In this document: positions 36,650 to 47,969 of the stretch, in pieces
Position numbering within the stretch: position 1 is the stretch's first letter
How the letters are laid out: every line of letters starts with the position of its first letter
Assembly (NCBI GenBank): GCA_037129925.1
Contig: JBAXTZ010000015.1
Coordinates: forward strand, 1 to 64,000
Length of the DNA: 64,000 nucleotides
Direction of reading: 5' to 3'
Source of the DNA: Bacillota bacterium
GTDB lineage: Bacteria; Bacillota; Negativicutes; JBAXTZ01
The notes under the pieces: generated by a model
Databases searched by the model: none
The model's input: only the letters and a program-made list of their open reading frames with translations
What the model was told of the DNA's origin: nothing
Made by a program: the position numbers and the translations under genes

Positions 36650-37876
36650 TTATATTCGATTAATCACCATACCATCCCGCAACTTCGGTTCGAACCAAGT
36701 TGACTTTGGCGGCATGATTTCATTATTGTCGGCAATTGCCAGTAATTCATCCATTGATGGCGGAAACAACGAAAATGCCACCGCGTAGTCGCCGCTATCG
36801 ACCAGTTTTTCTAGTTCGCTCATGCCGCGGATACCACCGACAAAATCGATGCGCTTGGCAGTGCGCGGGTCGTCGATCGCTAACAGCGGTTGTAAAATGT
36901 TACGTTGGAGAATATTGACATCCAACCGCGCCTGACAATCATTTTCATCGACGATATCACTGTTAGCACGCAATACGTACCACTCGTTATCAATATACAT
37001 TCCGAATACATGTCGGGTCTGTGGTTTTCCGGATACATCGCTACCCTTACCAATGTTGCTCACCCGGAAATTTTCCGCTACGGCCGCCATAAATTCAGCC
37101 TTGGTCAGACCGTTTAAGTCCTTGACCACCCGGTTATAGTCCATGATTGCCAATTGGTCATGAGGAAAGGCTACCGCCAAAAACACTTGCGCGGCAGCAT
37201 TTTCTGGTTGCTGACCGGCCAGCAATACGGCAGCCGCTGAGCGATGATGCCCGTCGGCGATATATAAGTCCGGAATGTTGGCAAACGCCGTTTTAATATT
37301 GCTGCAGTCTTCCGGCGCATCAACCACCCACATAGTGTGGCGAACGCCGTCTTCGGCAACAAAATCATACTCGGGTATACGGCAGGTAAACCCGGCAACC
37401 AGGTCGTCTAGTTTCGCTTCGGCGCGATACGCCAAAAATACCGGTCCGGTCTGGGCCCGGGTAATGCGGATATGCATGGCCCGGTCATTTTCTTTGTCGG
37501 GGCGGGTCAACTCGTGTTTCTTGATTTTATTGCCGCGATATTCAGCAGCCGAATAAGCGGCGGCAATGCCCGTCTGGCGGTGCGCCCCCTTGGTCAACCG
37601 GTAGATGTAGTATGCCGGTTGAGCTTCTTCAAACAACAGCTCCGCTTCAACCATCGCTTGCAGACGGTCGGCCGCGCATTTATATATCTCCGGCGCGTAC
37701 GGGTCAACATTTGGATGTTCAGCCTCAGCTTTGGTCACCCGCAATAAACTACTCGGGTTAACGGCGATTTTCGCCGCCGCCTCAAGGCTGTTCATAACAT
37801 CATAGGGCGGCGCCGAAACCTCAGCGACTTTATCTTTTGCCGAGCGCAATGCCCGAAACGGTAATACTTGTGCCAT
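36650..37876 (-). CDS. DUF1015 family protein
   Basis: 408 aa. DUF1015 proteins frequently neighbour serA, which is the case here. Confidence 0.55.
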   Translation of the reverse strand: MAQVLPFRALRSAKDKVAEVSAPPYDVMNSLEAAAKIAVNPSSLLRVTKAEAEHPNVDPYAPEIYKCAADRLQAMVEAELLFEEAQPAYYIYRLTKGAHRQTGIAAAYSAAEYRGNKIKKHELTRPDKENDRAMHIRITRAQTGPVFLAYRAEAKLDDLVAGFTCRIPEYDFVAEDGVRHTMWVVDAPEDCSNIKTAFANIPDLYIADGHHRSAAAVLLAGQQPENAAAQVFLAVAFPHDQLAIMDYNRVVKDLNGLTKAEFMAAVAENFRVSNIGKGSDVSGKPQTRHVFGMYIDNEWYVLRANSDIVDENDCQARLDVNILQRNILQPLLAIDDPRTAKRIDFVGGIRGMSELEKLVDSGDYAVAFSLFPPSMDELLAIADNNEIMPPKSTWFEPKLRDGMVINRI

Positions 37877-39507
37877 TAAAATATAATCACTTTCGGCTGA
37901 GCCACACCGTCAATCGCGGCAATCATTTGCAACACTTCCTCGCCTGGTTCAACTTCCAGAGCGATCAGCATGATATTATTCCCCGGTATCGCCATCTGCT
38001 CCAGCTGCATCCCGCCAATGTTGATTTTGTTCTGACCAAGAACAGTAGCTACTTTACCAATCATTCCCGGACGGTTGACGTGCGGGCAGATCAGCAATAT
38101 GCCTTTGGGCGCAATATCCACCCGGTAGTTATCCAGACGGACAATTCGCGCATCGCGTTCACCCAACAGCGTCCCTGCCACAACATGGCGGTTTTCCGCT
38201 GAACCGACGGCTACGGTGATTAAATTGGCAAATTCCTTTTTGTCTTCGCTCTTAATTTCACGGACATGGATGCCGCGGTCTTTTGCCAAATGATAGGCGT
38301 TTACAAAATTCACACTATCCTCGGTCATCGGCGCTAACACACCTTTGATAACCGCTGCCGTCAGCAATCGCAAATCATAGCCGCCGACTTCGCCATTATA
38401 CTCAACTTGAATTTCTTCAACGCCGCCTTCGAGTAATTGAACTGCTAACGTTCCCATTTTCTCAGCCAGTGTAAAATACGGTTTAATAGCATCAAGCGTG
38501 GCGCTCGAAACCATTGCCATGTTGACGGCGGTCTGCGCGGTTTTGCCTTTGAGCACCTGAATAATGCCGTGCGCTACATCTACCGAAACACCCACTTGCG
38601 CCTCTTCAGTCGATGCGCCGAGGTGCGGGGTGAACAAAATCCGTTCCGCTGTTAACAACGGGTTGTCGGCCAAGATTGGCTCTTTGGAAAAAACGTCGAC
38701 TGCCGCTCCGGCGATTTGGCCGCTATTCAATGCCGCAGCCAAATCGGCTTCATTTACTACGCCACCCCGGGCGCAATTGACGATTCGCGCCGTCGGTTTC
38801 ATTTTGGCAAATGCTGCCTTGTTCAACATTCCTTTAGTATCCGGGGTCTGCGGGAGATGCAACGTAATAAAGTCCGCTTCGGCGAAAATTTCCGCCAATT
38901 GGGCTTTTTTGATTCCGGCAATCCGCGCTTGTTCTTCGGTTACGTAAGGATCATAGCCAAGAATCTTCATTTCCATCGCCGCAGCGCGTTTGGCAACACC
39001 CCGTCCGATGCGTCCCAGTCCGAGGATACCAATCGTCTTACCACGCAATTCCACGCCGACAAATTTAGCCCGTTCCCACTTGCCTTCTTTCATCGACATA
39101 TACGCTTGGGGAATGTTGCGGGCAAGCGCCAGCATCATCGCCATCGTGTGTTCTGTCGCAGCGATCGTATTCCCTTCCGGCGCGTTCAGAACGACAATTC
39201 CTTTTTGAGTAGCAGCTTCAACATCAATATTATCGATACCAACACCGGCACGGCCAATGGCTTTGAGCTTATCGGCTTTGGCGATAATATTCTTTGTAAC
39301 TTTCGTTTCACTGCGGACGACCAACGCGTCATATTGACCAATAATTTCGATTAGTTGTTCTTCGGTTTGCTTGATGATAATATCCACCTGATGGTCAATT
39401 TTCAGGATATCAATCCCCTCTTGAGCCACCGGATCAGCGATTAAAATTCTCATGGTCAGTCTCCTTATCATTGTAAAAATTGTACCTATTATCTCTGAAA
39501 AAGCCAA
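37876..39507 (-). CDS. serA: D-3-phosphoglycerate dehydrogenase with a C-terminal ACT domain
   Basis: A 2-hydroxyacid dehydrogenase NAD site (GILGLGRIGRGVAKRA) is present, together with catalytic R/E/H residues and a C-terminal ACT domain. The true start is probably MRILIADP (about 39453). Confidence 0.85.
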   Translation of the reverse strand: MAFSEIIGTIFTMIRRLTMRILIADPVAQEGIDILKIDHQVDIIIKQTEEQLIEIIGQYDALVVRSETKVTKNIIAKADKLKAIGRAGVGIDNIDVEAATQKGIVVLNAPEGNTIAATEHTMAMMLALARNIPQAYMSMKEGKWERAKFVGVELRGKTIGILGLGRIGRGVAKRAAAMEMKILGYDPYVTEEQARIAGIKKAQLAEIFAEADFITLHLPQTPDTKGMLNKAAFAKMKPTARIVNCARGGVVNEADLAAALNSGQIAGAAVDVFSKEPILADNPLLTAERILFTPHLGASTEEAQVGVSVDVAHGIIQVLKGKTAQTAVNMAMVSSATLDAIKPYFTLAEKMGTLAVQLLEGGVEEIQVEYNGEVGGYDLRLLTAAVIKGVLAPMTEDSVNFVNAYHLAKDRGIHVREIKSEDKKEFANLITVAVGSAENRHVVAGTLLGERDARIVRLDNYRVDIAPKGILLICPHVNRPGMIGKVATVLGQNKINIGGMQLEQMAIPGNNIMLIALEVEPGEEVLQMIAAIDGVAQPKVIIF

Positions 39508-40747
39508 TTAACGCAAGTCCAAGCCGGTCGGCCAATTCTACTGCGGCATAACTCGGAGCGCTTACGGCGCACACCAGTCCCACTGGTACACGGCGAATTT
39601 TTTCCAGCAGTTCGACACTGACGCGCGACGATAACAACAGGATTTTCGCCTCCTGAACAACATCGTTGATAACCAAAGCACCGATTGCCTTATCGAGCGC
39701 GTTATGCCGGCCGATATCTTCAAAAAAACTTAACAAATTCCCCTTATCGTCAAAAAAACCAGCGGCGTGGGCAGCGCCGGTACGGCGAAAAATCACTTGC
39801 TGCTCAAAAAACTTTTGTTGAAGTTGTTGCATAAAAGAAATTTCCGGACGGATAAATTCACGAGGACGTTCCAACAGCTCCTGCTCGTTACGAAATAACG
39901 CCTGATATTCGCAGTTGTTATTCCGTTCCAAGTGCATTATATCTTTCATATCCGCCAACCGCCCTGTTGAATAACCCCAGCCAATCAGCAGTTCGCGGAC
40001 ATTTACCGGCGTACATAAAAACCGCTGTTCGTCCGGTGTGTGGAGTACTACCGTTTGTTCGACAATCAATTCATCCTGCGCAACCGTTGTTATGCCGTTC
40101 CGGTAGCGACTGATTTTGCGGGCGACAACCGCTGACGGTTCAGCTTGACAAAAGTTGTTGTAATCAGCTGGCGTATTAATATTTTCGATACTGCGCCCGT
40201 TTTGCAAGACAACACGCTTGACCAAGCCGCTGTCAGCAAGCGCCTTCGCCCGGCGAATGTTGTTCTGCATCAATTCATTGATAACCACTAGCGACCGTTT
40301 GCTATATAGCGCATATAACGGTTCCAAACGACCATTGTTTTCCGGCATAACCGCGATACAATCGCAGGTATTTGCCGCTAACAGCTGTTTGAACAAACTC
40401 ACGTCGATTTTCGGCGAGTCCACGGCTACGACAAACACCGTTTCGTGCTTTGCCGCCCGCAATCCAGCGCTCATTCCTGCAAGTGGTCCAAAATCAACCC
40501 GCTCATCAACCACCATTCGACAACCTGCAACCACGAAATTCTGGTTTTGATTGATACTTATTATAATGTCCGTAAACAAGCTTTTTAATTGCTCGCTCAG
40601 GTATTCTACCGCAATTTTACCATCGTATTCCAACAGCGCTTTGTCGCTCCCCATCCGTGAGCTTCGCCCGCCAGCGAGAATGACTACTGAGCAATTATCG
40701 AAAGCTAACATTTTGCACGCTCCAATAAAATAATAAAGCAACGCCAA
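39434..40747 (-). CDS. fdhD: MobA-like molybdenum-cofactor guanylyltransferase fused to formate dehydrogenase accessory sulfurtransferase FdhD
   Basis: The N-terminus is MobA-like (VVILAGGRSSRMGSDKALL). The C-terminus is FdhD-like (EDIGRHNALDKAIG and the Cys-containing loop FLCTPVNV). Confidence 0.7.
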   Translation of the reverse strand: MALLYYFIGACKMLAFDNCSVVILAGGRSSRMGSDKALLEYDGKIAVEYLSEQLKSLFTDIIISINQNQNFVVAGCRMVVDERVDFGPLAGMSAGLRAAKHETVFVVAVDSPKIDVSLFKQLLAANTCDCIAVMPENNGRLEPLYALYSKRSLVVINELMQNNIRRAKALADSGLVKRVVLQNGRSIENINTPADYNNFCQAEPSAVVARKISRYRNGITTVAQDELIVEQTVVLHTPDEQRFLCTPVNVRELLIGWGYSTGRLADMKDIMHLERNNNCEYQALFRNEQELLERPREFIRPEISFMQQLQQKFFEQQVIFRRTGAAHAAGFFDDKGNLLSFFEDIGRHNALDKAIGALVINDVVQEAKILLLSSRVSVELLEKIRRVPVGLVCAVSAPSYAAVELADRLGLALIGFFRDNRYNFYNDKETDHENFNR

Positions 40748-40865
40748 TGATCTACAGCATCAGCGTTGCAATTACTAGCTTCTTATACTTGCAGTTCTTT
40801 AACCAGTCTCTTGCGTTTCTGCTTTCAACTTTTACATATCAGCTTTTATCATGCTTTCAGTATTA

Positions 40866-42017
40866 TTATGCTTGCAGCCATTCTATCTGCGCTGCCCGCA
40901 CACCGGCACCCAGTTCAATTTTTTCGCCCAATTCCAGCAAGGTCATTTCTAACATCGTAATCGTCACCATCACATCACTGATAGCGCAAAAACCCATATG
41001 CCCGATGCGGAAAATTTTGCCTTCCAAGGCCTTTTGACCGCCCGCCATCGTCACGCCATAAGTTTCCCGCATGATTTTTTGGATTTTTTTGGCTTCGATA
41101 CCTACCGGCGGATAGATGCCGGTAACAGCGTTCGACGCGCAATAATCTTCGGCGAGCAATCGCAACCCGAGCGCTTTGGCAGCGGCGCGGATACAGTTGC
41201 GCAATTTACGATGACGCAAGAAAATCGTTGTCAGCCCTTCTTCTTCAATCATTTTTAAGGCTTCTTGCAAACCAAACAGCAAACTGACCGGCGGCGTGTA
41301 GGGGTTTTGCCATTTTTCCAGCGCCTTACGCGCCGCTTTGGCATCCCAATAAAATTTAGGATTGTCCGTGGCATCAGCCTTAGTCCAAGCTTTGGCGCTG
41401 ACCGCCATAACACCAATACCCGGAGGAATCATCAACGATTTCTGACTGCCGGCTACCACAACATCCAAGTTCCAATCATCCATTTTTAACTCAATCGCGC
41501 CCAGACCGCTCACCGAATCGACCATAAACAGCGCCGGATGCTGACCGCGTGCCGCGCTAATCGCTTGGACATCATTAGTAACCGATGCCGAAGTTTCGTT
41601 ATGTGTAACCAAAATTACTTTGATTTCATGGTTGGTATCCGCTGCCAAGCGAGCGGCAACCGCCTTGGGGTCAATCGCCTGACCGACTTCGACCGACATT
41701 ACTTCGACATCCGCGCCATAGCGCCGGGCAATTTCCGCCCAGCGGTCACCAAATACACCGACCGTTAACGCCAGCACTTTTTCATTCTTGCCGACAAAAT
41801 TAGCAATCGCCGCTTCCATCACGCCGGTGCCGCTTGACGGAAACAATATTACATCGTTATTCGTCTGATAAACCGCCTTCAGGCGCGTGGTGCAGTCTTT
41901 GAGCAACCCTTCAAATAAAACACCGCGATGGTTAATAACCGGACGGGTCATTGCCTGAATCACTCGTTCCGGAACCATCGTCGGACCGGGAATCATCAAA
42001 AATTGTTTTTTTAGCAC
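40866..42017 (-). CDS. Class V aminotransferase (serine-pyruvate / alanine-glyoxylate / phosphoserine aminotransferase-like)
   Basis: 383 aa with a PLP-lysine region (VVAGSQKSLMIPPG), positioned next to serA. Confidence 0.75.
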   Translation of the reverse strand: MLKKQFLMIPGPTMVPERVIQAMTRPVINHRGVLFEGLLKDCTTRLKAVYQTNNDVILFPSSGTGVMEAAIANFVGKNEKVLALTVGVFGDRWAEIARRYGADVEVMSVEVGQAIDPKAVAARLAADTNHEIKVILVTHNETSASVTNDVQAISAARGQHPALFMVDSVSGLGAIELKMDDWNLDVVVAGSQKSLMIPPGIGVMAVSAKAWTKADATDNPKFYWDAKAARKALEKWQNPYTPPVSLLFGLQEALKMIEEEGLTTIFLRHRKLRNCIRAAAKALGLRLLAEDYCASNAVTGIYPPVGIEAKKIQKIMRETYGVTMAGGQKALEGKIFRIGHMGFCAISDVMVTITMLEMTLLELGEKIELGAGVRAAQIEWLQA

Positions 42018-42162
42018 TTAATTCTTCAGCTCCTATCATTAATTTTTACCCGCGCATTATATCATTCAAGAAGATTTTTTGCAAACCAAGCAATAGCTTG
42101 CAGGAATAACCGCTCTTGATATAGAATATAACTATGACAAAATTTTCGAGAGGAGTTTAGTA

Positions 42163-42855
42163 ATGAATTATTCACACGAAGTTGAACAAATGATTTGTGT
42201 TGCCAAAGGCTGCAAACACGATTCAGCGCCAATTCCCCAAGAAGGAAAATGGACGGTATCCCGGGAAATCAAAGACATCAACGGTCTGACCCACGGTGTG
42301 GGCTGGTGCGCTCCCCAACAAGGCGCATGTAAGTTAACCTTAAACGTAAAAGAAGGCATCATTCAGGAAGCGCTTATTGAAACCTTAGGTTGTTCAGGCA
42401 TGACCCACTCCGCGGCAATGGCAGCGGAAATTATGCCCGGTAAAACTATTTTGGAAGCATTAAATACTGACTTGGTCTGTGATGCCATCAATACCGCTAT
42501 GCGCGAATTGTTTTTGCAAATCGCTTATGGTCGCACGCAAACTGCTTTTTCGGATGACGGACTGCCAATCGGCGCCGGCTTGGAAGATTTAGGCAAAGGC
42601 TTGCGCAGCCAAATTGGCACTACCTATGGGACTATCGCCAAAGGTCCGCGCTATTTGGAATTAGCTGAAGGCTACATTACCGAAATCGGACTAGATGAAG
42701 AAGATCAAATCATCGGTTATCGGTTCGTCAATCTGGGCAAAATGATGGAAAGCATCCATAAAGGCGTTGACGCCAACGAAGCTTTGACTAAGGCATCCGG
42801 AAAATACGGCCGCATTGATGAAGCTGTTAAGACTATCGACCCGAGACATAAATAA
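42163..42855 (+). CDS. NifU/IscU-like Fe-S scaffold-domain protein
   Basis: The three-Cys pattern of the IscU fold is present (GWCAPQQGACKL, TLGCSGMTHSAAMAAE, LVCDAINTA). A C-terminal extension of about 100 aa follows. Confidence 0.5.
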   Translation: MNYSHEVEQMICVAKGCKHDSAPIPQEGKWTVSREIKDINGLTHGVGWCAPQQGACKLTLNVKEGIIQEALIETLGCSGMTHSAAMAAEIMPGKTILEALNTDLVCDAINTAMRELFLQIAYGRTQTAFSDDGLPIGAGLEDLGKGLRSQIGTTYGTIAKGPRYLELAEGYITEIGLDEEDQIIGYRFVNLGKMMESIHKGVDANEALTKASGKYGRIDEAVKTIDPRHK

Positions 42856-42880
42856 TTCGAAAGTGAAGGAGTGAAATATA

Positions 42881-43879
42881 ATGGCATTGTTCGAAAGTTA
42901 TGACCGCCGCATTGCGACCATCCAAAAAACTTTGGATAAGTATGGCATTGCCTCATTAGAAGAAGCCCGACAAATTTGCACTGATAAAGGTATGGACGTT
43001 TACAATATCGTCAAAAACATTCAGCCAATCTGCTTTGAAAACGCCTGCTGGGCATACATTCTCGGCGCAGCAATCGCAGTAAAAAAAGGCTGTACCAAAG
43101 CCGCTGATGCCGCTGTTGCACTCGGCGAAGGTTTGCAAGCATTCTGTATCCCCGGTTCAGTAGCCGATAGCCGCAAAGTCGGTATCGGACATGGTAATCT
43201 TGCCGCGATGTTGTTGCGCGAAGAAACCCTCTGTTTTGCTTTCCTTGCCGGTCACGAATCATTCGCTGCCGCTGAAGGCGCGATTGGTATCGCCCGCTCG
43301 GCAAACAAAGTTCGCACCGCGCCGCTCAAAGTTATTTTGAACGGTCTTGGCAAAGATGCCGCGATGGTTATCGCCCGCATCAATGGTTTCACCTATGTAC
43401 AAACTAAATTCGATTATTATACCAGCACCCTGAACATCGTTCGTGAAATCAGCTATTCCAAAGGCGAACGCGCATTAGTCCGTTGCTACGGCGCCGACGA
43501 CGTTATGGAAGGCGTTGCCATCATGACCCTGGAAGATGTCGACGTATCCATCACCGGTAACTCCACTAACCCAACCCGCTTCCAGCATCCGGTCGCTGGT
43601 ACCTACAAAAAAGAATCCAACGAGCGCGGCAAAAAATATTTCTCAGTAGCTTCCGGCGGCGGTACCGGTCGCACTCTGCACCCAGATAACATGGCAGCTG
43701 GTCCGGCATCCTACGGTATGACCGACACCATGGGTCGGATGCACTCAGATGCCCAATTTGCCGGTTCATCTTCAGTACCGGCACACGTTGAAATGATGGG
43801 ACTGATCGGCATGGGTAACAACCCGATGGTCGGCGCCAGTGTTTCCGTAGCCGTGGCAATTGAAGAGGCTTCACGCTAA
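42881..43879 (+). CDS. GGGtGRT family protein (function unknown)
   Basis: 332 aa containing the eponymous motif FSVASGGGTGRTLHPDNMAAG. Confidence 0.7.
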   Translation: MALFESYDRRIATIQKTLDKYGIASLEEARQICTDKGMDVYNIVKNIQPICFENACWAYILGAAIAVKKGCTKAADAAVALGEGLQAFCIPGSVADSRKVGIGHGNLAAMLLREETLCFAFLAGHESFAAAEGAIGIARSANKVRTAPLKVILNGLGKDAAMVIARINGFTYVQTKFDYYTSTLNIVREISYSKGERALVRCYGADDVMEGVAIMTLEDVDVSITGNSTNPTRFQHPVAGTYKKESNERGKKYFSVASGGGTGRTLHPDNMAAGPASYGMTDTMGRMHSDAQFAGSSSVPAHVEMMGLIGMGNNPMVGASVSVAVAIEEASR

Positions 43880-43911
43880 CAGCCAAAAGGCTTCAAACCA
43901 CAATTTGCAAA

Positions 43912-43957
43912 ACATTATTCTACAGAGTATAATTCTCTGTAGAATAATGTTTTTTTG
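43912..43957 (+). terminator. Rho-independent terminator (perfect 15-16 bp stem plus T7)
   Basis: acattattctacagag / ctctgtagaataatgt, followed by TTTTTTT. It ends 8 nt before the GGAGG RBS of the next gene. Confidence 0.75.
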
Positions 43958-43968
43958 TTGGAGGCTGT

Positions 43969-45387
43969 ATGAAATTCATAAACCGCGAGCGCGAACTGGC
44001 TTTTTTGGAAAGTGAATTCCACCGCGAAGGTTCCTCGCTGGTAATAATCTATGGACGGCGGCGGTTGGGAAAGACTACGCTTATCAAGGAGTTTTTGCGT
44101 GGCAAACGCGCCGGTTTTTTTCTGGCAACTGAGGAACTAGAGAACGATAACCGCGCATCGTTCCGGCAGATAATCGCCGATTTGACCGGCAACGATTTGT
44201 TGCGTAACAGCATTGCCAGCTGGGAAGATATATTCAAGGTGATTTCCGACAGTTCGCCGGACGAAAAACTGATTGTAGTAATCGATGAGTTTCAAAATCT
44301 TGGCAAATCCAATCCGGCATTTCCGTCGATAATGCAAAAAGTCTGGGATAATTTGCTGATAAATTCGAACATCATGCTGATACTATGCGGTTCGTTAATC
44401 AGCATGATGGAAAGTCAGACGTTAAACTATACCAGTCCACTCTACGGGCGGCGCACCGGACAAATAAAACTAAAACAAATTGAATATCGTTTTTTCCATA
44501 AATTCTTCGAGAAAAAAACCAATCAAGAATTACTCGATATTTACGCCGTCACCGGCGGCGTGCCAAAATATGCCGAAATGTTCCCGATGCGCGCGGGCGT
44601 TGATTTGTTTACCACGCTGCGGCAGGCGGTGCTGTCGCCGGATGCGATGCTGTATGACGAACCGGTGTTTTTGCTCAGCCAAGAGCTGACCGACAGCCGA
44701 ACCTACTTCTCGATCCTCAAAGCGCTGGCGGCCGGAAATCGCAAAATAAGTTCGTTAGCGACAATATTGGAAATAAAGCAGACCAGTCTTCCAAAATACC
44801 TGAAAACGTTAATCGAGCTGGATGTGTTAGAACGACGCACGCCGGTCACCGAAGTATCTCCGGAAAAGAGCAAGCGTGGTTTGTACTATTTCAAGGACAA
44901 TTTCCTGGAGTTTTGGTTCAAATTCGTGTTCCCGCGCAAAAGTGACCTCGAAGCCGGTTATGTGGACGATGTCGAAAACGGCATCAAGCAGCGTTTTGCA
45001 GAAAACCACGTTGCATTTGTTTTCGAAGAAATTTGTCGGAAATATGCGCAGCAGTTGAGCGCTTGCGGAAAGCTGCCATTCAAATTAGCGAAAGTCGGTG
45101 CATGGTGGAACAATAACGCCGAGATTGACATCGTCGGTTTTGACGAGACTCGTTCGGCTTGGTTGTTCGGTGAATGTAAATACACGAACGAGCCAGTCAG
45201 CGAACGAGTGTTATATGCGCTGATCGACAAGTGTGCGCTACAGTCAATCTGCCCCGACACTGCAGAAAAAGTTTACGTTCTGTTTGCCAAAACCGGTTTT
45301 ACCAAAAAACTGGCGTCATTGGCTAAAGAGCGCAAAGATGTGCTTCTGATAGCACTTGAAACTATGGATTTTGAGCGGGCGGTTTAA
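43969..45387 (+). CDS. ATPase of the 'archaeal ATPase' (PF01637-like) + DUF234 family
   Basis: 472 aa. Walker A (GRRRLGKTT), Walker B (IVVIDEFQ) and a C-terminal DUF234-like region. Confidence 0.6.
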   Translation: MKFINRERELAFLESEFHREGSSLVIIYGRRRLGKTTLIKEFLRGKRAGFFLATEELENDNRASFRQIIADLTGNDLLRNSIASWEDIFKVISDSSPDEKLIVVIDEFQNLGKSNPAFPSIMQKVWDNLLINSNIMLILCGSLISMMESQTLNYTSPLYGRRTGQIKLKQIEYRFFHKFFEKKTNQELLDIYAVTGGVPKYAEMFPMRAGVDLFTTLRQAVLSPDAMLYDEPVFLLSQELTDSRTYFSILKALAAGNRKISSLATILEIKQTSLPKYLKTLIELDVLERRTPVTEVSPEKSKRGLYYFKDNFLEFWFKFVFPRKSDLEAGYVDDVENGIKQRFAENHVAFVFEEICRKYAQQLSACGKLPFKLAKVGAWWNNNAEIDIVGFDETRSAWLFGECKYTNEPVSERVLYALIDKCALQSICPDTAEKVYVLFAKTGFTKKLASLAKERKDVLLIALETMDFERAV

Positions 45388-45432
45388 CGCAGCAAACTCT
45401 ACCGCCGGATGAATATATGAGTCATCAACAAT

Positions 45433-45475
45433 AACGCCGCCTGAACGATTAATTTCGTCCGAGCGGCGTTTTTAC
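45433..45475. terminator. Bidirectional terminator between convergent genes
   Basis: Stem aacgccgc...gcggcgtt, followed by TTTT on the plus strand. Confidence 0.55.
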
Positions 45476-45486
45476 GCTTACAATAC

Positions 45487-46803
45487 CTATTCGTTACCGT
45501 TCACCAATTTAAAACAATACTTTTCCAATTCTTCTGCAACCTTTTCCAGCGGTGTGTCCCAGTCTCCCGGCGTCGGCTGGCGGAATATCCGCATTATCGG
45601 GTACCAGTAGCTTTTATCAGTGTTTAATCCCCAGCGCCATTCCGACTCATAAAACAACAACAGCCAGACCGGTTTACCCATTGCTCCGGCCAAATGTGCA
45701 ATCGCCGTATCAACAGTGATTATCAGATCACAGGCATCGACTAGCGCTGCAGTATCGTTGAAATTCTGAGATAATCCGATCTCGTTGACTACATTCGGAC
45801 CGAAGTCACGCTCTTTCAAATTCATGTTGAGGTTGACCCAGCAGTAACCTTCTTTGCCGATAAGTTTCAGGGAATATTCTAGAGGACAATCTCGCCATAG
45901 GGTATCCTGCTTCGTAGGCCTTCCGCTGGAACAAAAACCGATTTTCGGTTTATCGATCAATATCAATCTTGCAACAACTGTAGCAATTTCCGGACAAATT
46001 TCTTCTTCGCCAACTGCGAGATATTTGTCAATCGAATAATCTTCAAAAGGTACGTTCATTTTGAATGGCAAACTCATTATTGCTACCGCATAATCATATC
46101 TGCAGATATTCCGAAATTCCACGCCAGCGCGGAGTTCCATGATTTCATCCTCCTTCACCAATTGCTTGAGTAGCGAAACTAGGGGCTTTTTCACCACCAG
46201 AATTATCCTGCCGCCAAACATTTTTTTTACCAGTGGCACAAATCGAGCAAACTGAATTACATCACCCATACCCTGCTCATGATAAATTATCAATGTTTTA
46301 ACGTGTGAATTTTCCCCCTGCCACTGAGGCAAATGCTTAGGACATAGTTGTATTGCCTTTTCGTAATCTAACCGCGCTTCGTACAATTTGCGGCCTTCAA
46401 CATTTTCTCCCAACAGACACAGAAATACACTGTACTCCCATAACAATTGAGCTTCATCCGAGGATCCTTTTACCAGCGCGATTGCGCTTCTAAAAGCTGA
46501 CATAGCATCCGAAATAAAACCATTATTCAAGAGCGCTCTCGCGGCCTCCGCAAGAAATAAATAATTCCTTGGCATCATGTCAAGCACCCGCTGATATGCT
46601 CTCGCTGCAGCAGATATGTTCCTGGCGTTTGCATAACACACGGCGATATCTCGTTGTAAATCAACATTATCCGGAAATAATTTATCCAGAGCAACCAAAA
46701 ACTCACCGGCCATAATCCATTCACCTGCCTTTGCAGCTTCTATTGCCTGACTTTTCAGCTTTTCGCTTTGTTCAATTGGCTTCTCTGTTACGCAAAATAT
46801 CAT
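45487..46803 (-). CDS. TPR-repeat protein fused to a glycosyltransferase family 9 (heptosyltransferase-like) domain
   Basis: N-terminal TPRs are followed by GT9-like motifs (TLIIYHEQGMGDVIQFARF, VDTAIAHLAGAMGKPVWLLL). Confidence 0.6.
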   Translation of the reverse strand: MIFCVTEKPIEQSEKLKSQAIEAAKAGEWIMAGEFLVALDKLFPDNVDLQRDIAVCYANARNISAAARAYQRVLDMMPRNYLFLAEAARALLNNGFISDAMSAFRSAIALVKGSSDEAQLLWEYSVFLCLLGENVEGRKLYEARLDYEKAIQLCPKHLPQWQGENSHVKTLIIYHEQGMGDVIQFARFVPLVKKMFGGRIILVVKKPLVSLLKQLVKEDEIMELRAGVEFRNICRYDYAVAIMSLPFKMNVPFEDYSIDKYLAVGEEEICPEIATVVARLILIDKPKIGFCSSGRPTKQDTLWRDCPLEYSLKLIGKEGYCWVNLNMNLKERDFGPNVVNEIGLSQNFNDTAALVDACDLIITVDTAIAHLAGAMGKPVWLLLFYESEWRWGLNTDKSYWYPIMRIFRQPTPGDWDTPLEKVAEELEKYCFKLVNGNE

Positions 46804-47048: not shown

Positions 47049-47969
47049 TTAGTTTGCCCGCAAAATTTTCATGTTGCCGTGCAACTGAACTGCACCGACT
47101 GCCGCCGGGATTAGTATTGTTTCGCCTTTAGTCAGGTTTTCAGTTTCACCGACATTCCAGGAAATAGTACCGCAACCATCCAGAACTATATAGATCAGGT
47201 AACCGCCGTTGGTGTTGTCGCTATGCTCACCATCTACTACAATTTCTCCCATCGAAAAAAACGGTGTCAGAATGGATCGCTTAGAAAAATCAACCGCTGG
47301 TTGCTCGCCGAAATCAATAACTCGTAGCGCTGCATCAACGTGTAGTTCGCGGCCTTTGCCGTCCGTGCCAACGCGGTTATAATCATAGATGCGGTAAGTA
47401 GTGTCCGAATTCTGTTGAACTTCGGCGACAACCACGCCGCTGGTCAGCGCATGTACGATGCCCGCCGGAACTGAGATAATATCACCAGTTTTCACTGGCA
47501 CCTGACGTAACGCCTGTTCAACCGAGCCAGTAGCCACCAACGCAGCAAACTGCTCTTTGGTCGTGCCGTCGATTAGACCAAAAATCAACTTCGCGCCCGG
47601 CTCCGCTGCCAAAATATACCAAGCCTCGGTTTTACCATTCTCGCCTTTGGCGCGGTCGGCATTATCATCGTTAGGATGAACCTGTACCGACAAATTATCG
47701 TTCGCATCAATCAATTTTACCAGTAGCGGAAACTGCTTGGGCTGGGCACCGCTGCCAAATATTTCTTGCGGGTACTCGGCCAGTAATTGCTCCAGCGTCT
47801 TACCGGCCAATGCGCCGTTGCTGACAACACTCATGCCGCTGCGGTGACAGCTCAAGTCCCAGCTTTCGCCGGTATCGGCGCCGGGAATTTCCCGATTATA
47901 TAACGACTGAAATTTGCTTCCACCCCAGAGCATTTGTTTGTAGATCGGTTGAAATTTTAATGGATACAT
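47049..47969 (-). CDS. manA: Mannose-6-phosphate isomerase, class I (cupin)
   Basis: PIYKQMLWGG, the QVHPND zinc site and GKTEAWYIL are present. Confidence 0.7.
   Translation of the reverse strand: MYPLKFQPIYKQMLWGGSKFQSLYNREIPGADTGESWDLSCHRSGMSVVSNGALAGKTLEQLLAEYPQEIFGSGAQPKQFPLLVKLIDANDNLSVQVHPNDDNADRAKGENGKTEAWYILAAEPGAKLIFGLIDGTTKEQFAALVATGSVEQALRQVPVKTGDIISVPAGIVHALTSGVVVAEVQQNSDTTYRIYDYNRVGTDGKGRELHVDAALRVIDFGEQPAVDFSKRSILTPFFSMGEIVVDGEHSDNTNGGYLIYIVLDGCGTISWNVGETENLTKGETILIPAAVGAVQLHGNMKILRAN

What the first reader, a model, noticed from the sequence alone, without database searches (positions are those of the whole stretch)
42163..43879. Conserved uncharacterised gene pair: IscU-like Fe-S scaffold-domain protein + GGGtGRT protein, bracketed by a strong terminator
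The first ORF keeps the three Cys ligands of the IscU/NifU fold but has a long C-terminal extension. The second carries the GGGTGRT signature of a family with no assigned function. The pair has its own RBSs and is followed by a perfect-stem terminator. The neighbours are Fe-S- and Mo-cofactor-related (FdhD-MobA at 39434, serine/glyoxylate aminotransferase), which hints at a role in metallocluster or cofactor handling in anaerobes.
Basis: partly seen in the sequence, partly recalled or inferred. Interest (0 to 1): 0.55.

Follow-up and report, generated by a model that had tools for sequence, protein, structure and literature searches.

The report
Ultra-conserved NifU-like / GGGtGRT gene pair
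This is a real two-gene operon for an iron-sulfur-type protein and its fixed partner (GGGtGRT), found next to each other in bacteria of at least ten phyla and kept more constant than the glycolytic enzyme enolase, yet nobody knows what it does.

Summary
ORF1 (42163-42855, 230 aa) and ORF2 (42881-43879, 332 aa) each have a strong ribosome-binding site. A perfect 19-bp hairpin terminator follows ORF2. ORF2 is a full-length PF14057 GGGtGRT protein (642 bits). ORF1 is only marginally IscU-like (Pfam 22.8 vs cut-off 22) and fails all IscU/NifU/SufU equivalog models.

The pairing is strict: every locus with enough upstream DNA to test (77 of 80 genomes, plus Vibrio and a 50%-identity clade) has ORF1 directly upstream of ORF2. 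Both proteins stay about 75-85% identical across at least 10 phyla, while synonymous sites are saturated and GC3 tracks the host. This is extreme purifying selection, not recent transfer.

The FdhD-MobA and aminotransferase neighbours are lineage-specific, so they do not support a cofactor-handling role. No cysteine desulfurase accompanies the pair.

Minority contexts (gpmI, apgM, eno), a B. thetaiotaomicron screen, repression under iron starvation and high abundance suggest a dedicated Fe-S enzyme complex tied to central carbon metabolism. An Fe-S scaffold or reservoir role is almost as likely. The biochemical function remains unknown.

The parts
42098..42127 (+). Putative sigma-70-type promoter of the bicistronic operon: TTGCAG, 18-nt spacer, TAGAAT
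   Evidence: Read by eye. The same stretch is nearly identical in the 96%-identical relative L098. The consensus scan lists an overlapping weaker site at 42116-42143. Function is inferred, not shown.
42150..42155 (+). Shine-Dalgarno sequence GAGGAG of ORF1, 7 nt before the ATG
   Evidence: Sequence.
42163..42855 (+). ORF1, 230 aa. It has an IscU-fold core (about aa 30-122) with Cys49, Cys77 and Cys106 invariant in every clade and Cys56 nearly so, followed by a family-specific C-terminal extension of about 110 aa.
   Evidence: Homologues have a constant length of about 230 aa and are 70-82% identical over the full length in 77 loci.
42865..42871 (+). Shine-Dalgarno sequence GAAGGAG of ORF2, 9 nt before the ATG. 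The intergenic gap is 25 nt.
   Evidence: Sequence. The gap is 4-46 nt in 69 of 70 other loci, and the two genes overlap in the divergent clade.
42881..43879 (+). ORF2, 332 aa, GGGtGRT protein (PF14057). It has an N-terminal helical domain (aa 1-112) and a Rossmann-like alpha/beta domain (aa 118-257). Invariant Gly/His/Ser-rich loops follow: TGNST 225-229, SGGGTGRT 258-265, QFAGSSSVP 292-300 and GNNPxVG 312-318.
   Evidence: Its codon bias ranks 2nd of 44 genes in the window (ENC 41.4).
43909..43959 (+). Intrinsic terminator: a perfect 19-bp stem, a 7-nt loop and a T-run
   Evidence: z = -7.0. The relative L098 has a different, GC-rich terminator at the same place, so the operon ends after ORF2 in both.

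Best explanation
The two genes encode the two subunits of one dedicated, abundant iron-sulfur protein complex.

ORF1 is an IscU-fold protein that holds a cluster on Cys49, Cys77 and Cys106, probably helped by Cys56, Asp107 or His44. I think the cluster is a resident prosthetic group rather than a transient scaffold intermediate.

ORF2 supplies a Rossmann-like pocket that binds a phosphate or nucleoside diphosphate: a beta-strand followed by the SGGGTGRT loop. It also supplies invariant His, Arg, Lys, Asp, Glu, Ser and Thr loops. These loops are disordered when ORF2 is modelled alone and probably close over ORF1 and its cluster to form the active site.

The complex would act as a cytoplasmic enzyme on a phosphorylated intermediate of central carbon metabolism, most plausibly at the 3-phosphoglycerate / 2-phosphoglycerate / PEP stage. 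It would be an iron-costly activity that cells switch off when iron is scarce.

Shown here: the operon structure, strict synteny, extreme purifying selection, the IscU-like fold, the conserved Cys triad and the Rossmann-like core. Inferred: cluster binding, formation of a heteromeric complex, and an enzymatic role. The substrate is a guess.
For: Strict pairing. ORF1 lies immediately upstream of ORF2 on the same strand in 77 of 80 genome loci. The other 3 loci are cut at a contig end. The pairing also holds in the clade at about 50% identity, where the genes overlap, and in Vibrio.

Correlated divergence of the two proteins: r = 0.71, Mantel p = 0.001.

Extreme constraint. Between the same genomes, ORF2 is 80% identical and ORF1 75-79%, against 58% for enolase. 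Synonymous sites are saturated (third-position identity 0.35) and GC3 tracks the host (r = 0.97), so this is selection, not recent transfer.

The cluster looks resident rather than transient. In the alignments the IscU Cys37 position is Gln, Asp39 falls in a gap and the LPPVK region is missing. No class V desulfurase appears among 152 flanking genes. SUF genes lie nearby in only 1 of about 100 loci.

Iron dependence and abundance. BT0173-74 falls 11-13-fold in iron-starved B. thetaiotaomicron (PMC10434189). The protein is 7-fold higher with iron in C. pasteurianum (PMC5395762). It is highly expressed in vivo (PMC11204068), and its codon bias ranks 2nd of 44 genes in the window.

Link to central carbon metabolism:
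- The pair sits inside gap-pgk-tpi-gpmI-[pair]-eno in 5 Clostridia loci.
- Enolase is nearby in Myxococcales and in L079.
- A bona fide ApgM, passing its equivalog cut-off (499.7 and 496.2 bits vs 489), lies directly upstream in 2 of 4 divergent-clade loci, with HAD and His_Phos_1 phosphatases.
- iPGM is the most frequent family at the second flanking position.
- A DeoC-family (PF01791) aldolase lies upstream in another lineage.
- Transposon insertions in BT0173-4 came out of the same B. thetaiotaomicron screen as pfkA; the same study later showed that deleting pyruvate kinase also derepresses Cur (bioRxiv 10.64898/2026.04.10.717545).
Against: To my knowledge no IscU-fold protein is known as a permanent enzyme subunit, so homology alone favours cluster assembly.

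Most loci show the pair as a stand-alone operon in unrelated neighbourhoods. An independent sample of 4 more species had no core glycolytic gene next to it.

In the Clostridia clade an unrelated YezG-like immunity gene is inserted at the same gpmI-eno site. That site may simply tolerate insertions.

The B. thetaiotaomicron phenotype is only 2-fold, was not followed up, and the mutants grow normally on glucose.

Identity of about 80% across phyla is unusual for a metabolic enzyme and fits a hub protein better.

The ORF1 model is poor (pLDDT 50), and the most conserved part of ORF2 is not modelled (pLDDT below 50 at aa 227-246 and 257-307). No complex could be predicted.
Confidence: 0.35

Rival explanations
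1. The pair is a specialised Fe-S cluster assembly, carrier or reservoir system for iron-replete, low-oxygen life. ORF1 is a true scaffold that builds or stores a cluster without a dedicated cysteine desulfurase, using ambient sulfide. ORF2 is its nucleotide- or iron-binding partner that loads or releases the cluster to many client proteins.
For: The only detectable homology and fold similarity of ORF1 is to IscU/NifU/SufU, with a conserved three-Cys site. The whole-length constraint of 75-85% identity across phyla, with saturated synonymous sites, is what one expects of a hub that touches many partners. IscU itself is among the most conserved proteins (my own knowledge). Repression under iron starvation parallels the E. 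coli ISC system (my own knowledge). In Collinsella aerofaciens the pair lies just downstream of sufB-sufD-sufS-sufU. The scattered, pathway-independent neighbourhoods fit a general housekeeping role. The B. thetaiotaomicron mutants are viable, as expected if SUF is also present.
Against: About 100 loci show no desulfurase, chaperone, ferredoxin or A-type carrier, apart from one SUF-adjacent case and two distant class V genes. ORF1 fails all IscU/NifU/SufU equivalog models and lacks the Asp39 and LPPVK features. ORF2 has no invariant Cys. A 12-fold shut-off in iron starvation and immunodominant abundance look more like sparing of an abundant iron protein than like assembly machinery. The apgM, gpmI and eno contexts are unexplained.
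Confidence: 0.28
2. The pair is a redox-stress or detoxification enzyme of anaerobes, for example a reductase for oxygen, peroxide, nitrosative or persulfide species. ORF1's cluster passes electrons to a His/Asp/Glu metal site in ORF2.
For: In Parabacteroides distasonis the pair lies between TlpA and OsmC upstream and a nitroreductase downstream. It is reported alongside rubrerythrins as highly expressed in vivo (PMC11204068). It is iron-responsive together with rubrerythrin in C. pasteurianum. ORF2 has four invariant His plus invariant Glu and Asp. Most hosts are anaerobes or facultative anaerobes.
Against: The redox neighbourhood is seen in one lineage only; B. finegoldii lacks it. There is no recognisable di-iron, flavin or NAD(P)H motif and no structural match to known detoxifying enzymes. 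It does not explain the phosphoglycerate-mutase contexts or the Cur screen.
Confidence: 0.12
3. One reading: the pair handles Mo-cofactor or another cofactor together with the neighbouring FdhD-MobA and aminotransferase genes.
For: The adjacency exists in the window and in 96%-identical relatives.
Against: The adjacency is lost at 89% identity and in all other lineages. The genes are divergently transcribed. The aminotransferase, the FdhD-MobA fusion and serA form their own overlapping operon on the other strand.
Confidence: 0.03

Closest known systems
IscU / NifU N-terminal domain Fe-S scaffold (PF01592)
   Different: ORF1 is 230 aa, not about 130, with a conserved C-terminal extension of about 110 aa that has no Pfam match. 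The first Cys is displaced: Gln occupies the Cys37 position, with C49 and C56 on either side. Asp39, His105 and the LPPVK segment are absent. It scores 21-27 bits against equivalog cut-offs of 188-192. It is never next to a cysteine desulfurase and always next to GGGtGRT.
SufU (Zn-dependent sulfurtransferase)
   Same: It is a distant IscU-fold relative (18 bits; PDB E about 0.04-0.6). A Cys3 site could also bind Zn.
   Different: No SufS partner is present. Collinsella has a separate canonical SufU beside its SufS and still has the pair as well. Expression depends on iron.
PF14057 GGGtGRT family, for example B. thetaiotaomicron BT0173 with the NifU homologue BT0174
   Same: ORF2 is a full-length member (642 bits). 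The same two-gene arrangement is reported in B. thetaiotaomicron.
   Different: Nothing differs in kind. The family itself has no assigned function and no solved structure.
Two-subunit Fe-S hydro-lyases (L-serine dehydratase SdaAB/SdaAA, class I fumarase or tartrate dehydratase alpha/beta). This is a working analogy from my own knowledge, not homology.
   Same: They are also small and large subunits encoded by adjacent genes, oxygen-sensitive, iron-dependent, abundant in anaerobes and dispensable when iron-free isozymes exist. A three-Cys cluster would leave one Fe free for a substrate hydroxyl.
   Different: No sequence or fold similarity was detected. In those enzymes the cluster sits in the catalytic subunit, not in an IscU-fold partner.
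C-terminal nucleotide-diphosphate-binding Rossmann domain of GT-B glycosyltransferases
   Different: ORF2 has one Rossmann-like domain, not the twin-domain GT-B fold. Sequence identity is 6-17%. Foldseek finds nothing significant (best E = 0.17, TM 0.24 or lower). SDR, ALDH, amino-acid kinase and USP domains score nearly as well, so the match is generic.

Membership tests
PF14057 GGGtGRT | Full-length match to the family HMM above the gathering score | tested here: met
   642.3 bits against a cut-off of 27; profile positions 1-327 of 327 are matched.
PF14057 GGGtGRT | GGGTGRT signature motif | tested here: met
   aa 259-265. The motif is invariant in 70 main-clade and 4 divergent-clade sequences.
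IscU/NifU_N scaffold | Pfam NifU_N HMM above the gathering score | tested here: inconclusive
   22.8 bits against a cut-off of 22, and only 59 of 127 profile positions are matched. Most homologues carry no precomputed PF01592 hit. The divergent-clade member scores 16.8, below the cut-off.
IscU/NifU_N scaffold | Equivalog-level match (TIGR01999 IscU, TIGR03419 NifU_clost, TIGR01994 SufU) | tested here: not met
   21.4 vs 192.4, 27.2 vs 187.9 and 18.1 vs 92.5 bits.
IscU/NifU_N scaffold | Three cluster-ligand cysteines at the canonical positions (E. coli Cys37, Cys63, Cys106) | tested here: inconclusive
   C77 aligns with Cys63. The Cys37 column is Gln53, with C49 and C56 flanking it. C106 is not aligned by HMMs but sits before a predicted helix as in IscU. 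C49, C77 and C106 are invariant.
IscU/NifU_N scaffold | Asp39, His105 and the LPPVK chaperone-binding motif | tested here: not met
   The alignments end at aa 103-112. Only 3 residues separate 'NTD' from Cys106, against about 14 in IscU. Val precedes Cys106.
IscU/NifU_N scaffold | Genomic partnership with a cysteine desulfurase (IscS, NifS or SufS) | tested here: not met
   No Aminotran_5 family appears among the top families of 152 flanking genes. A tblastn search with SufS finds a SUF operon near the pair only in Collinsella, plus two distant class V genes 4-6 kb away. The class V enzyme in the window is a transaminase.
IscU/NifU_N scaffold | Binds and transfers a labile Fe-S cluster | not testable with these tools
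   This needs anaerobic purification, spectroscopy and cluster-transfer assays.
Rho-independent terminator | Stable stem-loop followed by a T-run directly after the last gene | tested here: met
   Perfect 19-bp stem and T-run, z = -7.0.

The most novel reading that the evidence does not exclude
The pair is a previously unrecognised iron-sulfur enzyme of central carbon metabolism, for example an iron-dependent activity at the phosphoglycerate/PEP node that works in series or in parallel with phosphoglycerate mutase and enolase. It would use an IscU-fold protein as a permanent catalytic-cluster subunit, a role not known for that fold. That would make one of the most abundant and most conserved proteins of gut, rumen and sediment anaerobes a missing piece of core metabolism. 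The nearly equally novel alternative is a new desulfurase-independent Fe-S cluster supply system.
Probability: 0.3. Interest if true: 0.85.

Novelty: new member of a known kind. Interest (0 to 1): 0.62.

Why it matters
GGGtGRT and its NifU-like partner are catalogued but unexplained. They rank among the highly expressed proteins of Bacteroides, Prevotella/Segatella, Megasphaera, Blautia and rumen Firmicutes. They fall about 12-fold on iron starvation. As shown here, they are under stronger purifying selection than enolase across at least ten phyla.

A function that is this constrained, this abundant and still unknown in the dominant gut anaerobes is a clear gap in the map of anaerobic physiology. 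Resolving it would add either an enzyme to central metabolism or a machine to Fe-S biogenesis. It would also explain a hit in the B. thetaiotaomicron glucose-signalling screen.

The analysis gives testable handles: the Cys49/77/106 triad, the invariant His/Arg/Lys loops of ORF2, and the phosphoglycerate-mutase contexts.

Tried and rejected
No complex model was obtained.
- The afdb50 fold library was unavailable.
- Natural ORF1-ORF2 fusions were sought among over-long database proteins. All are metagenome assembly chimeras with internal duplications or unrelated N-termini.
- The 1.84-billion-protein representative search showed essentially one 50%-identity cluster plus fragments, and one divergent lineage.
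- Rfam found no leader or riboswitch.
- The 'plasmid' hits are non-mobilizable chromids or mis-labelled chromosome pieces, so there is no evidence for plasmid spread.
- Recent horizontal transfer as the cause of the high identity was rejected.
- Motif ideas considered by eye and dropped. Walker A needs a Lys and different spacing. The PEP-utilizer phosphohistidine signature has Arg where His is needed. The Met-rich copper-binding idea fails because the Met residues are not conserved in the divergent clade. The similarity of 'GSSSVPAH' to the serine dehydratase 'GPSSSHT' motif has no supporting homology.
- The literature held in the library assigns no function, and cluster names give no alternative annotation.
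Full report
**Observation**

The window carries two same-strand ORFs, 42163-42855 (230 aa) and 42881-43879 (332 aa). Each is preceded by a strong Shine-Dalgarno sequence: GAGGAG 7 nt before the first ATG and GAAGGAG 9 nt before the second. A perfect 19-bp hairpin at 43909-43953 with a T-run follows ORF2. It folds at -35.5 kcal/mol, z = -7.0 against shuffles. A sigma-70-like TTGCAG-18-TAGAAT lies about 35 nt upstream of the ORF1 ATG and is conserved in a 96%-identical relative. That relative ends the operon with a different, GC-rich terminator at the same place. Rfam finds no leader RNA. The unit is a self-contained bicistronic operon.

**Identity of the proteins**

ORF2 matches Pfam PF14057 (GGGtGRT) over its full length at 642 bits. 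No NCBIfam model covers it.

C77 aligns with IscU Cys63. The Cys37 column is Gln53, flanked by C49 and C56, and Asp39 falls in a gap. The region containing LPPVK and His105 is deleted, leaving C106 three residues after the 'NTD' motif at the start of a predicted helix. The C-terminal 110 residues match no family.

**Co-conservation**

A scan of one genome per species returned more than 590 relatives of ORF2. In the best 80, an ORF1 homologue covering the full 230 residues at 70-82% identity lies immediately upstream on the same strand in 77. The other three loci are cut by a contig end within 125 nt of ORF2. The intergenic gap is 4-46 nt in 69 of 70 complete pairs.

The hosts span Bacillota (Clostridia, Negativicutes, Bacilli), Bacteroidota, Fibrobacterota, Spirochaetota, Lentisphaerota/Verrucomicrobiota, Myxococcota, Desulfobacterota, Acidobacteriota, Actinomycetota and Pseudomonadota.

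An exhaustive phmmer search of 1.84 billion cluster representatives showed that the family is essentially a single 50%-identity cluster plus fragments and chimeras, with one genuinely divergent lineage (P0268, 53% identity). That lineage also keeps the pair, with overlapping genes and an ORF1 homologue at 50% identity. A Vibrio chromosome-2 copy at 68% identity keeps it too.

Across all of these, C49, C77 and C106 of ORF1 never change. C56 is replaced by Ala only in Vibrio. ORF2 has no invariant Cys but 98 invariant positions. They include H104, H267, H288, H302, E126, E210, D178, K158, K244, R145, R166, R264 and R286, and the motifs TGNST, SGGGTGRT, QFAGSSSVP and GNNPxVG. Divergence of the two proteins is correlated (r = 0.71, Mantel p = 0.001).

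**Strength of selection**

Between the same Myxococcales and Clostridia genomes, enolase is 58% identical, ORF2 is 80% and ORF1 is 75-79%. The GC3 of the pair ranges from 0.10 to 0.88 and follows the flanking host genes (r = 0.97). Third-position identity at conserved four-fold codons averages 0.35, which means saturation. The high identity is therefore long-term purifying selection, not recent transfer. In the window, ORF2 has the second strongest codon bias of 44 genes (ENC 41.4, median 50.6), consistent with high expression.

**Structure**

AlphaFold2 on ORF2 (46 sequences) gives pTM 0.80. The model has a confident N-terminal helical domain (1-112), a Rossmann-like alpha/beta domain (118-257) and C-terminal helices. 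The most conserved stretch (227-246 and 257-307, including GGGTGRT) has pLDDT below 50.

My reading, which is inference, is that the beta-strand plus SGGGTGRT loop binds a phosphate or nucleotide, and that the unmodelled loops order only on the partner, cluster or ligand. The ORF1 model is poor (pLDDT 50).

**Genomic context**

They are replaced by a DeoC-family (PF01791) aldolase and PrpD at 89% identity, and they are unrelated to the pair elsewhere. They form their own overlapping operon on the opposite strand. The aminotransferase is BhcA-like (362 bits), not a desulfurase.

A census of 152 genes at the first and second flanking positions shows no universally conserved neighbour and no cysteine desulfurase. 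The most frequent families are iPGM (5), phage integrase (4) and a YezG-like immunity protein (3). Enolase, PEPCK, PFK, a PEP-utilising enzyme, PFOR and GlgB also appear.

Five Clostridia loci place the pair inside gap-pgk-tpi-gpmI-[YezG]-pair-(eno). Enolase is nearby in Myxococcales and in L079.

In the divergent clade, two of four loci read HTH-ApgM-(HAD phosphatase or membrane protein)-pair-(membrane protein)-His_Phos_1. Their ApgM proteins pass the equivalog cut-off, at 499.7 and 496.2 bits against 489.

Other contexts point elsewhere. Parabacteroides has TlpA, OsmC and a nitroreductase. Collinsella has sufBDSU, the only SUF-adjacent case in about 100 loci. Four further species sampled as a replication show no core glycolytic neighbour, only GlgB and mannose-6-phosphate isomerase. 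The central-carbon signal is therefore recurrent and arises in independent lineages, but it is a minority pattern. The co-inserted YezG gene weakens the Clostridia case.

**Literature**

No paper in the searchable library assigns a function.
- B. thetaiotaomicron BT0173 (GGGtGRT) and BT0174 (NifU homologue) are down 11-13-fold in iron deficiency (PMC10434189).
- The C. pasteurianum protein is up to 7-fold higher with iron (PMC5395762).
- It is the antigen of a monoclonal antibody raised against Segatella copri (PMC12078515).
- It co-varies with NifU, GAPDH and PEPCK in the rumen metaproteome (PMC7035244).
- In a 2026 preprint, a screen for loss of glucose-dependent Cur inhibition in B. thetaiotaomicron hit three loci: pfkA, the M16 peptidase locus BT3802-3, and BT0173-4. 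The BT0173-4 insertions gave a 2-fold effect and normal growth. The peptidase acts in part through pyruvate kinase abundance, and deleting pyruvate kinase also derepresses Cur (bioRxiv 10.64898/2026.04.10.717545).

**Interpretation**

What is solid: this is an obligate two-gene module. One protein has an IscU-type fold with a conserved Cys triad. The other has a Rossmann-like core and a very polar, glycine-rich invariant surface. The module is abundant, iron-responsive and under exceptional constraint.

I favour, at about 0.35, a dedicated heteromeric Fe-S enzyme in which ORF1 is a resident cluster subunit and ORF2 binds a phosphorylated substrate or nucleotide. It would act in central carbon metabolism, plausibly at the phosphoglycerate/PEP stage. 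The grounds are:
- the absence of any desulfurase or chaperone partner and of the IscU transfer features;
- the enzyme-like conservation pattern of ORF2;
- iron-sparing-type repression and high abundance;
- the gpmI, apgM and eno contexts;
- the B. thetaiotaomicron screen.

Nearly as likely, at about 0.28, is a desulfurase-independent Fe-S scaffold, carrier or reservoir system. That reading best explains the homology, the hub-like whole-length conservation and the pathway-independent neighbourhoods. The remaining probability covers functions not considered here.

**Novelty and verdict**

The families and their adjacency in B. thetaiotaomicron are already on record, so the window holds a new member of a known but functionally blank kind.

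New here are:
- the demonstration that the synteny is universal, down to 50% identity;
- the measurement that both proteins are more constrained than enolase, with saturated synonymous sites;
- the definition of the invariant Cys triad and of the ORF2 motifs;
- the lack of any solved structural relative;
- the rejection of the Mo-cofactor neighbourhood argument;
- the recurrent association with phosphoglycerate mutase and enolase.

Interest is moderate to high because this is a prominent known unknown of anaerobe physiology that is now directly testable.

Noticed in passing
window 37876-42017 (minus strand): The class V aminotransferase, a MobA-FdhD fusion protein and serA form one overlapping minus-strand operon. 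The serA ORF as listed (543 aa, TTG start) is probably 18 codons too long. Starting at MRILIADP (about 39453) gives the 525 aa of the relative and a 20-nt overlap with the MobA-FdhD stop, as in L098. A Moco/formate-dehydrogenase maturation fusion sitting inside a serine-biosynthesis operon is odd.
   Followed up: partly
window 43969-46803 compared with L098 7000-8000: Directly after the terminator, the window carries an ATPase_2 + DUF234 (archaeal-type AAA) gene and a TPR/glycosyltransferase-9 gene. The 96%-identical relative has a DUF975 gene there instead. This is a variable, possibly inserted segment. A TTTGCA-18-TATAAT promoter-like site for the ATPase gene lies inside the terminator hairpin (43904-43933).
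   Followed up: partly
P0001, P0003, P0008-P0012, P0121, P0128, P0241, P0252, P0273, P0311: Many over-long 'proteins' of both families in public metagenome catalogues are assembly chimeras. They have internal tandem duplications or unrelated N-termini, probably because near-identical strain variants of these very conserved genes collapse during assembly. They inflate cluster counts and top the hit lists.
   Followed up: yes
L024, L034, L042, L053 (between gpmI and the ORF1 homologue): A YezG-like immunity protein gene (PF04634) is inserted in the glycolytic operon of a gut Clostridia clade, right beside the pair. Phage integrases flank the pair in 4 other loci.
   Followed up: partly
L087 6992-7972, L091 2839-3837, L092 4528-5631: In the divergent clade, a predicted membrane protein of 326-367 aa with no family match follows ORF2 directly in three of four loci. 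It may be a third component specific to that clade.
   Followed up: no
L093 8257-8976 (Vibrio sp. THAF191d, second replicon): The Vibrio ORF1 homologue has Ala in place of Cys56, the only loss of that Cys seen. It also has a longer N-terminus (239 aa). The record is labelled a plasmid but is a 1.85-Mb chromid.
   Followed up: partly
L094 7800-7991 (Parabacteroides distasonis): RefSeq annotates a 63-aa hypothetical ORF in an unusually long (about 190 nt) spacer between the NifU-like gene and GGGtGRT. B. finegoldii has the usual short spacer instead.
   Followed up: no
window 47049-47969; L098 8240-9160; L104 8044-9108: A type I mannose-6-phosphate isomerase gene lies 1-3 kb downstream of the pair on the opposite strand in the window, in its close relatives and in an 84%-identical lineage. 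In L098, crcB (fluoride channel) and DUF190 follow it.
   Followed up: no
L078 (contig binned as Methanobrevibacter) and L077 (binned as Akkermansia): The pair occurs on contigs assigned to a methanogen MAG and an Akkermansia MAG at about 80% identity to bacterial copies. This could be mis-binning and was not checked.
   Followed up: no
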